Shown: piece after piece, positions 51,850 to 54,001 of the stretch
Layout of the letters: every line of letters begins with the position of its first letter
How positions within the stretch are numbered: position 1 is the first letter of the stretch
Source: an uncultured Methanosarcinales archaeon
Lineage (GTDB): Archaea; Nanobdellota; Nanobdellia; Woesearchaeales; GW2011-AR9
Length of the DNA: 64,000 nucleotides
Direction of reading: 5' to 3'
Assembly: GCA_964344235.1 (NCBI GenBank)
Contig: CAYFMJ010000002.1
Span: forward strand, 96,001-160,000
The notes under the pieces: generated by a model
Told to the model about the DNA's origin: nothing
Seen by the model: the letters and a program-made list of their open reading frames with translations, nothing else
Databases searched by the model: none
Program-made: the position numbers and the translations under genes

Positions 51850-51997
51850 TTAACTATCACCTCTTTTTTTTAAGGGTCCTATGACGGGTTCCCTTATAGT
51901 TTCCTACTATTATTTTTTTATTTATATGTCTTTTGTTTTTTATCCGTCTATTTTTATAGCAAAAACTTAATAAAAGGGTTAGCGGTTTTCTGTGTAT

Positions 51998-52177
51998 CCC
52001 CTCTTAGTTTAGCTTGGCTAGAACGCTCCGCTGTGTGTTCTTAGGAAACTGAGAACAGGCGAGAGATAAGTTCACTGTTGGACTAAGCCTTTAGGGCTCT
52101 GGATGAAATACAGCCAGTGGGGACGGAGAGACATCTTCGGATGCTTCAAATCCCCGGTTCAAATCCGGGAGAGGGGA
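51998..52177 (+). tRNA. tRNA-Tyr(GTA) with three BHB introns (35/36 inside the anticodon, 37/38, 45/46)
   Basis: Exons 51998-52034, 52064-52065, 52123-52130 and 52150-52177 give CCCCTCTTAGTTTAGCTTGGCTAGAACGCTCCGCTGTAGACGGAGAGATCCCCGGTTCAAATCCGGGAGAGGGGA. C1-G72 and A73 are archaeal Tyr identity elements. The BHBs of introns 1 and 3 are fully paired. Confidence 0.85.
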
Positions 52178-52831
52178 CTCCGAAGGCAGGGTGTGCGTTC
52201 TCACCCTTGCCTTCACATATTTTTCAATTTTTTCTTGTTTTCTAACACAATAAAAACCAATTTCTTTGTAGAACTTTTCTATGTCTTTGATCACAATTGC
52301 GAAAACATTTCTTTTTGCACCAAATCCCGATTTAATAGTGTTCTCTATTCCGAATTCAGAGATCATTTTTTGTACTTGTTTTAGGCCTTTGAAATTGATT
52401 GAGTAGAGTCTTAAAATTAATCTTCTTCCTTCTGGGATTACACTCCCCTCGTCGTCGTATAGGGCTTTTAAGAACTCACGCTTGATGCTTTTACTAGCTT
52501 CTATAATTTCTTTTGGAACGGTCCAAGTCCTAGAGAAGTAATCACAGTAACTCTTAAGATCTTCATATGCTAATTTTGACCTAACTCTTGCGTAAGGAAG
52601 AAGCTTGCCCGTTTTTCCGGATGGCTTGAGTGCAACAACCGGTTTTAGCCCATAAACATTGTCTAAGTCATCAACAAACTGTTGTAGTAATTCTGGGTCT
52701 GTGATGTCATATTTAATGTTGTAATCAGTTCGGCACTTGTAAGCACAACCATCGCCAATCAAGTGAGCGATTAGCCTTGCTTTAGCTTCTGTTAACTCTT
52801 TGAAGCCGGGTTTTAGTCTCTTGATTCTCAT
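52091..52831 (-). CDS. Free-standing two-motif LAGLIDADG homing endonuclease
   Basis: Motif 1 ARLIAHLIGDG, motif 2 EFLKALYDDEGSV, RLYSINFKGLKQV. The C-terminal ~30 codons run antisense through tRNA-Tyr. Confidence 0.85.
   Translation of the reverse strand: MRIKRLKPGFKELTEAKARLIAHLIGDGCAYKCRTDYNIKYDITDPELLQQFVDDLDNVYGLKPVVALKPSGKTGKLLPYARVRSKLAYEDLKSYCDYFSRTWTVPKEIIEASKSIKREFLKALYDDEGSVIPEGRRLILRLYSINFKGLKQVQKMISEFGIENTIKSGFGAKRNVFAIVIKDIEKFYKEIGFYCVRKQEKIEKYVKARVRTHTLPSESPLPDLNRGFEASEDVSPSPLAVFHPEP
52182..52214. terminator. Strong hairpin immediately 3' of tRNA-Tyr
   Basis: GAAGGCAGGGTG/CACCC(T)TGCCTTC followed by T-rich sequence on the + strand. Confidence 0.5.
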
Positions 52832-53884: not shown

Positions 53885-54001
53885 GGGCCGGTAGCTTAGC
53901 TTGGTAGAGCGCCTGACTTTTAGCAAAAAACAGGAGTTTTTTGAAACTTCCTGCCGAAAGTAATCAGGCGGTCGCGAGTTCAAATCTCGTCCGGCCCACC
54001 A
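53885..54001 (+). tRNA. tRNA-Lys(TTT) with one canonical 37/38 intron and an encoded CCA
   Basis: Intron 53923-53962 (40 nt) with a perfect BHB helix CTTT/AAAG; acceptor GGGCCGG/CCGGCCC-A-CCA. Confidence 0.95.

What the first reader, a model, noticed from the sequence alone, without database searches (positions are those of the whole stretch)
51998..52177. tRNA-Tyr with an intron inside the anticodon, a 2-nt exon and obligatory ordered splicing
Seen: the unspliced gene reads CT-GTG (His), but C1-G72/A73 are Tyr identity elements. A fully paired BHB (central helix CGCT/GGCG, bulges GT|G and AG|A) removes 52035-52063 between anticodon positions 35 and 36 and creates GTA. A 2-nt exon (AG, 52064-65) is followed by a 57-nt 37/38 intron whose BHB can form only after intron 1 is removed. 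A third 19-nt intron with a perfect BHB sits at 45/46. Established: archaeal EndA cleaves BHB motifs, and multi-intron tRNAs are known in Thermoproteales and ARMAN. Inference: splicing here determines the decoding identity; standard tRNA finders would likely miss this gene or call it His.
Basis: partly seen in the sequence, partly recalled or inferred. Interest (0 to 1): 0.85.

Follow-up and report, generated by a model that had tools for sequence, protein, structure and literature searches.

The report
Three-intron tRNA-Tyr gene, split anticodon
This is a real tyrosine tRNA gene of a tiny DPANN (Woesearchaeota) archaeon, cut by three protein-spliced introns, one of which sits inside the anticodon and leaves a 2-base exon; it is an extreme example of a known archaeal habit, not a new mechanism.

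Summary
Window 51998-52177 (+) has a complete acceptor stem, D arm and T arm. Removing 52035-52063, 52066-52122 and 52131-52149 gives a 75-nt cloverleaf that ARAGORN calls tRNA-Tyr(GTA). That product is 74/75 identical to the spliced single-intron tRNA-Tyr of a relative at the same position upstream of rpoB. At least seven other Woesearchaeota sequences share the intron after anticodon base 35 and the AG exon. Their first splice motif keeps its pairing through compensatory changes.

The rival His reading fails: it has T at -1, A73 and a pyrimidine at 37, and no splice motif for an 86-nt intron. A proper tRNA-His with G-1/C73 lies elsewhere in the genome. The genome encodes one alpha4-like EndA and RtcB.

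The 37/38 motif is weak (three G-U pairs). The 45/46 motif has no outer helix.

Ordered splicing follows from the geometry, but it is already described for closely spaced archaeal introns. Heavy tRNA disruption in DPANN is also known.

This scan earlier found 4-7-nt anticodon micro-exons in other archaea. Here the anticodon itself is split.

Carriers are scattered on an RpoB' tree, and most have a LAGLIDADG gene next to the tRNA, which hints at mobility.

Verdict: new variant of a known kind, moderate interest.

The parts
51961..51975 (+). A/T-rich promoter-like element (AAAAACTTAATAAAA), with a TATA-like part at about -31 to -23 from the tRNA start
   Evidence: Read directly. The same AAAAACTTAATAAA lies at a similar distance upstream of the L041 orthologue. 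Promoter function is inferred.
51998..52034 (+). Exon 1: tRNA positions 1-35 (acceptor 5' strand, D arm, anticodon stem 5' strand, C32 U33 G34 U35)
   Evidence: It matches L025 at all but one D-loop base.
52035..52063 (+). [quoted passage not shown]
   Evidence: central helix CGCT/GGCG, bulges GT|G and AG|A, inner helix 9 bp, outer helix 2 bp. It is conserved in L008, L060, L062, L236, L239, L244 and L041.
52064..52065 (+). Exon 2: A36 G37 (2 nt)
   Evidence: Needed to give CTGTAGA, the loop of all 26 single-intron relatives. AG is invariant in every carrier.
52066..52122 (+). Intron 2 (57 nt) at 37/38, homologous to the ancestral tRNA-Tyr intron of the group, with a weak BHB (CTGT/GTGG)
   Evidence: With intron 1 removed, ARAGORN calls tRNA-Tyr(gta) with a 57-nt intron.
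52123..52130 (+). Exon 3: positions 38-45 (A38, anticodon stem 3' strand CGGAG, A44 G45)
52131..52149 (+). Intron 3 (19 nt) at 45/46: central helix GGAG/CTTC, inner CATC/GATG with a TTCG loop, no outer helix
   Evidence: Relatives without it (L025, L236, L239) fix the mature variable loop. L036 has a clean 45/46 intron.
52150..52177 (+). Exon 4: positions 46-73 (variable loop end, T arm, acceptor 3' strand, A73); no CCA encoded
52182..52214 (+). G+C-rich hairpin followed by T runs, terminator-like; it lies inside the tail of the antisense LAGLIDADG ORF
   Evidence: Read directly. It is conserved with compensatory changes in L041.
52091..52831 (-). Convergent LAGLIDADG homing-endonuclease-like ORF (246 aa) whose tail reads antisense through the tRNA 3' half
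   Evidence: Pfam LAGLIDADG_3, 6.7e-11. Homologues sit in the same position in 5 of 8 carriers of the 35/36 intron and 1 of 26 other loci.

Best explanation
The locus is the functional, and apparently only, tRNA-Tyr(GUA) gene of a Woesearchaeota (DPANN) archaeon. It is interrupted by three introns of the archaeal bulge-helix-bulge (BHB) type at positions 35/36, 37/38 and 45/46.

The 37/38 intron is the old tRNA-Tyr intron shared by the whole group. The 35/36 intron is a later insertion that sits exactly between the central helix (32-35) and the 5' bulge (36, 37) of that older splice motif.

Proposed pathway (inferred, not shown):
1. The single alpha4-like EndA cuts the first motif, built from positions 30-33 and the 3' end of intron 1.
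2. RtcB joins U35 to A36. This recreates the ordinary single-intron pre-tRNA-Tyr seen in relatives.
3. Only then can the 37/38 motif form and be cut. The 2-nt exon is therefore never released as a free dinucleotide.
4. The 45/46 intron is removed independently. Its central helix uses 40-43, so it competes with the anticodon stem.

The anticodon GUA exists only in the spliced RNA.
For: 1. The cloverleaf parts are visible in the sequence. The spliced 75-mer folds as a cloverleaf at -31.7 kcal/mol.
2. ARAGORN calls the product tRNA-Tyr(gta). It calls the intron-1-less intermediate tRNA-Tyr with a 57-nt intron.
3. About 30 orthologues lie at the same position upstream of rpoB. Most have an intact CTGTAGA loop and one 37/38 intron. 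The predicted product is 74/75 identical to spliced L025.
4. Seven further sequences share the 35/36 intron and the AG exon.
5. In the first motif 98.5% of cells are paired, against 35-40% when the partners are slid. Pair 30:intron is G-C, G-U or C-G, and it follows the exon change in this genome. Inner-helix pairs 4 and 5 also covary: T-A/G-C, and C-G/T-A/A-T/G-C/G-T (read).
6. A strict motif exactly after T35 arises in 0.3% of shuffles.
7. EndA (closest to M. jannaschii 1a79) and RtcB are present.
8. A tRNA-His with G-1/C73 lies at G000:C1:270808-270904. No second tRNA-Tyr was found.
9. Heavy tRNA disruption with alpha4 EndA in DPANN is reported (PMC5829648). Introns so close that one must be removed first are described (PMC8450103).
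Against: 1. There are no RNA data. Splicing, its order and the exact cuts are all inferred.
2. The 37/38 motif in this genome is weak: three G-U pairs and a 1-bp inner helix. Enforcing it gives -14.0 against an MFE of -22.2 kcal/mol. In the other carriers T33 faces C.
3. RNAalifold on 26 relatives prefers a different, covarying helix (30-34 with an intron CAGCC) to the canonical motif.
4. The first motif is also not the MFE: -28.2 against -37.1 kcal/mol.
5. The shuffle control of the covariation count is not significant with only 7 sequences (73/500).
6. The EndA looks like a plain alpha4 enzyme. It lacks the insertion seen in the N. equitans enzyme, and such enzymes are usually considered strict.
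7. The assembly is 96% complete, so a second tRNA-Tyr cannot be excluded.
Confidence: 0.85

Rival explanations
1. It is a tRNA-His(GUG) gene with one long 86-nt anticodon-loop intron plus the 19-nt intron, as ARAGORN reads it.
For: The unspliced loop reads CTGTG.
Against: The base at -1 is T, not G, and the discriminator is A73, not C73. The His loop would carry T at position 37. No BHB motif bounds the 86-nt stretch. A tRNA-His with G-1/C73 and a 37/38 intron exists at C1:270808-270904. All orthologues in the same genomic position are tRNA-Tyr.
Confidence: 0.02
2. The gene is a decaying pseudogene. Tyr decoding would then rest on another, undetected (split, permuted or unassembled) tRNA-Tyr.
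For: Only 9 tRNAs pass the Rfam threshold, and about 19 were found by my scan, in a 96%-complete genome. Many tRNAs are therefore still hidden. The 37/38 motif is weak.
Against: All stems are intact. The product is 74/75 identical to a relative's tRNA-Tyr. The layout is conserved across at least 8 diverged sequences with compensatory changes. The promoter-like element is conserved. No other Tyr-like exon or GTA arm was found.
Confidence: 0.05
3. The junctions are right, but splicing is not strictly ordered. The enzyme cuts relaxed half-motifs independently, or the conserved alternative fold (30-34 paired with the intron CAGCC, with the 5' site in a 6-nt bulge) is the real substrate.
For: RNAalifold on 26 relatives recovers the alternative helix with covariation at 30 and 31, and not the canonical motif. 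This genome keeps that helix through a compensatory change (CAGTGG against CCGCTG). Relaxed motifs are cut by some archaeal enzymes (PMC3239211, PMC5829648).
Against: In the primary transcript U35 and A36 are 29 nt apart, so neither fold can present the 5' site of intron 2 as it does in relatives. Cutting it early would free a 2-nt exon and lose it. The EndA here resembles the strict alpha4 type.
Confidence: 0.2

Closest known systems
Multiple-intron tRNA genes of Thermoproteales (Pyrobaculum, Thermofilum, Caldivirga), up to three BHB introns per gene (reviews PMC4033280, PMC4090602; tRNAscan-SE 2.0 paper PMC8450103)
   Same: [quoted passage not shown] Three introns per gene. Cases where one intron must go before the next motif can form. 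Standard finders fail.
   Different: A different phylum (DPANN) and an alpha4-like rather than (alpha-beta)2 EndA. One intron lies inside the anticodon triplet (35/36), a position absent from the lists I could read (3/4, 20/21, 22/23, 25/26, 29/30, 30/31, 45/46, 53/54, 56/57, 59/60). The exon is only 2 nt.
ARMAN-2 (Micrarchaeum) pre-tRNA-Pro(GGG) with adjacent introns at 53/54 and 59/60, and DPANN tRNA disruption in general (PMC3239211, PMC5829648)
   Same: A DPANN archaeon. Closely spaced introns leave a very short exon. tRNA sets cannot be completed by software.
   Different: There the short exon is 6 nt, lies in the T loop, and the enzyme is the epsilon2 type with a specificity loop. Here the exon is 2 nt, lies in the anticodon loop, and there is a single alpha4-like gene.
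Group I intron in tRNA-Leu(UAA) of cyanobacteria and plastids, inserted inside the anticodon (own knowledge; cf. PMC4090602, PMC5931654)
   Same: The intron interrupts the anticodon, so the anticodon exists only after splicing.
   Different: That is a self-splicing ribozyme of more than 200 nt at 34/35. Here a 29-nt hairpin with a BHB motif is cut by a protein. There is no Rfam intron hit.
Canonical 37/38 intron of pre-tRNA-Tyr in Archaea and Eukarya, needed for pseudouridine 35 in eukaryotes (own knowledge)
   Same: Intron 2 is this intron. Once intron 1 is removed, the intermediate equals the ordinary pre-tRNA-Tyr of relatives, with U35 A36 G37 exposed.
   Different: Any role of the conserved intron fold in modification is untested here. 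A TruD/Pus7 homologue is present.
[quoted passage not shown]
   Same: Many non-canonical introns. The annotator misses a large share of them. The route by which introns arrive is open.
   Different: A different lineage. Those papers, as far as I could search them, do not mention an intron inside the anticodon.

Membership tests
Archaeal/eukaryal-type tRNA-Tyr | Anticodon GUA in a 7-nt loop with U33 and a purine at 37 | tested here: met
   After splicing the loop is CTGTAGA. ARAGORN calls tRNA-Tyr(gta).
Archaeal/eukaryal-type tRNA-Tyr | C1-G72 pair and A73 discriminator (TyrRS identity elements; established knowledge) | tested here: met
   CCCCTCT / AGAGGGG plus A at 52177.
Archaeal/eukaryal-type tRNA-Tyr | Short (5-nt) variable loop and orthology with known tRNA-Tyr genes | tested here: met
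   The variable loop is AGATC. The product is 74/75 identical to spliced L025, and the gene lies at the same position upstream of rpoB in about 30 relatives.
BHB (EndA-spliced) archaeal tRNA intron | Two 3-nt bulges separated by a 4-bp helix, flanked by helices, with cuts after the second bulge base | tested here: met
   Intron 1 meets it fully (4/4 central pairs, inner 9 bp, outer 2 bp). Intron 3 has both bulges and the central helix but no outer helix.
BHB (EndA-spliced) archaeal tRNA intron | The same motif for the 37/38 intron | tested here: inconclusive
   CTGT/GTGG pairs at 4/4 but with three G-U pairs, and the inner helix is 1 bp. The motif costs 8 kcal/mol against the MFE. Relatives favour another fold.
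BHB (EndA-spliced) archaeal tRNA intron | Splicing endonuclease and RtcB ligase encoded in the genome | tested here: met
   One EndA (PF01974 and PF02778; 1a79-like). RtcB at 3.3e-174.
BHB (EndA-spliced) archaeal tRNA intron | Excision shown in RNA or in vitro | not testable with these tools
   No RNA data for this organism were available.
tRNA-His | G-1 paired with C73; purine at 37 | tested here: not met
   T at -1, A73, and T37 in the His reading. The real tRNA-His is at C1:270808-270904.
Group I self-splicing intron in an anticodon | Ribozyme core (P3-P9) of more than 200 nt | tested here: not met
   The intron is 29 nt, and Rfam gives no intron family hit.
Closely spaced introns with forced order (as described for Thermoproteales) | The second motif needs sequence that becomes contiguous only after the first intron is removed | tested here: met
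   The central helix of motif 2 (32-35) and its bulge (36, 37) are separated by intron 1. Motif 1 uses 30-33. The order itself is not shown.

The most novel reading that the evidence does not exclude
The multi-intron tRNA-Tyr allele may be part of a mobile module together with the convergent LAGLIDADG homing-endonuclease gene that overlaps its 3' end. Endonuclease-driven repair would copy the neighbouring tRNA interior (the 35/36 intron plus the matching 37/38 intron type) into new genomes. That would give a concrete route for the spread of archaeal tRNA introns, which is an open question.

Support: carriers of the 35/36 intron fall in at least four separate places on an RpoB' tree. The endonuclease gene sits in the same position in 5 of 8 carriers against 1 of 26 non-carriers.

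Caveats: it is a single-gene tree. The counts are not phylogenetically independent. The intron sequences are old and diverged. Repeated precise loss explains the same pattern; L025 keeps the matching 37/38 intron type without the 35/36 intron.
Probability: 0.15. Interest if true: 0.8.

Novelty: new variant of a known kind. Interest (0 to 1): 0.5.

Why it matters
No exon of this gene holds the whole anticodon, and one exon is only two bases long. The tRNA's decoding identity therefore exists only in the spliced RNA, and gene finders mislabel or miss the gene. That matters for judging tRNA sets, codon usage and the completeness of DPANN genomes.

The layout is also a natural test of how an apparently strict alpha4 endonuclease handles overlapping splice motifs in sequence. 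The patchy distribution next to a homing-endonuclease gene gives a testable lead on how archaeal tRNA introns move.

Tried and rejected
1. A loose pattern scan of genome contigs and of 400 order-level genomes returned only chance matches. A tighter pattern gave the true relatives but misses variants such as L041. None of my claims rest on the unpublished genome G210, which appeared only among the chance matches.
2. MAFFT did not align inner-helix pairs 4-5 of the short introns. The formal pair count therefore undercounts covariation, and its shuffle control is not significant (73/500).
3. Searching for the LAGLIDADG protein in genome contigs found only two loci, so the association could not be widened.
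4. I compared L008 with its close RpoB' relative L013 to look for a recombination tract. This was inconclusive because the intergenic flanks themselves do not align.
5. I tried to read the conserved ATGA / (T)GA internal loop of the 37/38 intron as a box C/D guide RNA. Box spacing and guide length do not fit, and Rfam gives no C/D hit in the intron. I leave it as 'K-turn-like, function unknown'.
6. The idea that the 35/36 intron protects the gene from the neighbouring endonuclease is weak. L006 carries the endonuclease gene with an ordinary single-intron tRNA-Tyr.
7. Key older papers (Marck & Grosjean 2003; Sugahara 2007; Tocchini-Valentini 2011) are not held. I cannot rule out an earlier report of a 35/36 BHB intron.

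Full report
**What is there.** Window 51998-52177 (+) shows all the fixed parts of a tRNA by direct reading:
- acceptor stem CCCCTCT/AGAGGGG with A73;
- U8;
- a D arm with GG in its loop;
- a T arm, CCCGG TTCAAAT CCGGG.

Between the 5' strand of the anticodon stem (CTCCG) and its 3' strand (CGGAG) lie 88 extra bases. A further 19 lie in the variable region.

ARAGORN at default settings finds nothing in the window. The Rfam tRNA model misses the gene at both the gathering and the permissive thresholds.

**The organism.** The genome has 1.19 Mb in 37 contigs, 39% G+C, and is 96% complete. Its RpoB' has 63-81% identical relatives only in Woesearchaeota/Nanoarchaeia (DPANN) assemblies. Only 9 tRNAs pass the Rfam cut-off in the whole genome. 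This fits the published remark that DPANN tRNA sets cannot be completed because of disrupted genes (PMC5829648).

**Checking the splice model.**
- Removing 52035-52063, 52066-52122 and 52131-52149 gives a 75-nt RNA. It folds as a cloverleaf at -31.7 kcal/mol, and ARAGORN calls it tRNA-Tyr(gta).
- With intron 1 alone removed, ARAGORN calls tRNA-Tyr with a 57-nt 37/38 intron.
- A scan for bulge-helix-bulge (BHB) motifs confirms intron 1. It has central helix CGCT/GGCG, bulges GT|G and AG|A, a 9-bp inner helix and a 2-bp outer helix.
- Such motifs are not rare in general. In 1000 dinucleotide shuffles of the insert, 31% had a strict motif somewhere in the gene, and the real gene holds two decoys. 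A strict motif cutting exactly after T35 arose in only 0.3%.

**Comparative evidence, which is decisive.** About 30 relatives carry a tRNA-Tyr gene at the same place, 2-3.5 kb upstream of rpoB.
- Twenty-six of them have an intact CTGTAGA loop and a single 37/38 intron.
- The spliced product of L025 is 74/75 identical to the product predicted here. All spliced relatives are called tRNA-Tyr(gta).
- Seven further distinct sequences share the intron after GT and the AG exon: L008, L060, L062, L236, L239, L244 and L041. They also share a 37/38 intron that begins ATRARTTC.
- L236 and L239 lack the 45/46 intron, which fixes the mature variable loop.

In the first motif 98.5% of cells are paired, against 35-40% when the partners are slid. 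The pair between position 30 and the intron is G-C or G-U in the other carriers. It is C-G here, where the exon base has changed. Inner-helix pairs 4 and 5 also change on both sides (read). With seven sequences the shuffle control is not significant (73/500).

**The His reading fails.** It has T at -1, A73 and T at position 37, and no motif bounds the 86-nt stretch. A tRNA-His with G-1, C73, anticodon GTG and a 37/38 intron lies at G000:C1:270808-270904. BLAST of the exons, plus a scan for GTA anticodon arms followed by T arms, finds no second tRNA-Tyr.

**How it most likely works.** The genome encodes one EndA with both domains. It is closest to the M. jannaschii alpha4 enzyme (1a79, 1.5e-37) and lacks the insertion seen in the N. 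equitans enzyme. It also encodes RtcB.

Motif 1 uses exon positions 30-33. Motif 2 needs 32-35 directly followed by A36 G37. Two things follow:
- The two motifs exclude each other.
- Motif 2 cannot be built until U35 is joined to A36.

Removing intron 1 recreates the ordinary pre-tRNA-Tyr of relatives. It also prevents the 2-nt exon from being released as a free dinucleotide. This order is inferred, not shown. [quoted passage not shown]

Motif 3 uses 40-43, so it competes with the anticodon stem, but it does not depend on the other introns.

**Weak points.**
- Motif 2 here has three G-U pairs and a 1-bp inner helix. Enforcing it gives -14.0 kcal/mol against an MFE of -22.2. In the other carriers T33 faces C.
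- RNAalifold on the 26 single-intron relatives does not return the canonical motif (alignment A2). It returns a long helix: 30-34 paired with an intron CAGCC, stacked on a strongly covarying stem. U35 A36 G37 and the 5' splice site sit in a roughly 6-nt bulge. There is also an internal loop with an invariant ATGA and a (T)GA, which looks K-turn-like.
- This genome keeps that alternative helix through a compensatory change (CAGTGG against CCGCTG).
- I could not explain this fold. One possibility is that it presents U35 to the TruD/Pus7 homologue, as in the intron-dependent pseudouridine 35 of eukaryotic tRNA-Tyr (own knowledge).

**Comparison with what is known.**
- Multi-intron tRNAs are established, with up to three introns in the reviews I read. 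So are closely spaced introns, such as ARMAN-2 tRNA-Pro at 53/54 and 59/60. So is heavy disruption in DPANN with alpha4-type EndA, and in Asgard archaea (PMC4033280, PMC4090602, PMC3239211, PMC5829648, PMC11291895).
- An intron inside an anticodon is known for the group I intron of tRNA-Leu(UAA) (own knowledge).
- I found no report of a BHB intron at 35/36 or of a 2-nt tRNA exon. The key older surveys are not held.
- Earlier follow-ups of this scan found 4-7-nt micro-exons carrying the whole anticodon in other archaea. Here the triplet itself is split.

I therefore class this as a new variant of a known kind.

**A lead on origin.** On an RpoB' maximum-likelihood tree and on a FastTree, the carriers of the 35/36 intron fall in at least four separate places:
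- this genome groups with L007;
- L008 groups with L013;
- L041 groups with L036, L068 and L070;
- L060 and L062 group with L059 and L049.

A LAGLIDADG gene (Pfam 6.7e-11) lies convergent to the tRNA and overlaps its 3' end. Homologues sit in the same place in 5 of 8 carriers and in 1 of 26 other loci. This suggests either spread by co-conversion or repeated precise loss. L025 keeps the matching 37/38 intron type without the 35/36 intron, which favours loss in that lineage. A comparison of L008 and L013 for a recombination tract was inconclusive.

Noticed in passing
window 52091-52831 (-); L041:2965-3648, L006:2974-3708, L062:2739-3479, L236:3392-4099, L239:238-837: A LAGLIDADG homing-endonuclease-like ORF lies convergent to tRNA-Tyr, and its last ~29 codons read antisense through the tRNA 3' half. 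The same arrangement recurs in five other loci, four of which carry the 35/36 intron.
   Followed up: partly
L041:2809-2997 (JAHJDQ010000182.1): This tRNA-Tyr gene has four predicted introns: 35/36 (31 nt), 37/38 (55 nt), 45/46 (17 nt) and 59/60 (13 nt). The spliced 73-mer is called tRNA-Tyr(gta). I could not confirm that from the main text of PMC11291895.
   Followed up: partly
alignment A2 (26 relatives); window 52066-52122: The 37/38 intron of tRNA-Tyr across Woesearchaeota has a conserved fold. An intron CAGCC pairs with exon positions 30-34 (covarying). Next to it are a strongly covarying stem, an internal loop with an invariant ATGA and a (T)GA (K-turn-like), and a small hairpin. This fold competes with the canonical splice motif.
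   Followed up: partly
G000:C1:270808-270904 (+): A tRNA-His(GTG) with encoded G-1, C73 and a 37/38 intron. ARAGORN miscalls it tRNA-Ser(aga).
   Followed up: yes
window 51395 downwards (-), 53711 (+), 53885-53998 (+): tRNA-Gly(GCC)-like, tRNA-Asp(GTC)-like and tRNA-Lys(TTT) genes flank the tRNA-Tyr. All are interrupted, and only the Lys gene is found by Rfam.
   Followed up: no
L008:3008-3195 versus L013:2652-2805: The 45/46 intron of L008 and the 53/54 intron of its close relative L013 share a near-identical 12-13-nt block (ACTTAA.GGCGGA). This looks like the same intron shifted by 8 nt (intron sliding).
   Followed up: no
G000:C12:15795-15956 (+): ARAGORN calls a second 'tRNA-His(gtg)' with an 85-nt intron here. 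It has A73 and an anticodon stem that does not close, so it is probably another multi-intron tRNA with a misread anticodon.
   Followed up: no
window 51998-52177: Two further strict BHB-like motifs lie within the gene (cuts after gene positions 19 and 21). They would give nonsense products. They are decoys, or chance matches caused by the repeated AGAAC.
   Followed up: partly
L081:1474-2076 (-) = G000:C13: This is the only EndA in the genome. It aligns to the M. jannaschii alpha4 enzyme with no gaps in the catalytic domain and lacks the insertion seen in N. equitans EndA. Yet the genome is full of non-canonical introns.
   Followed up: partly
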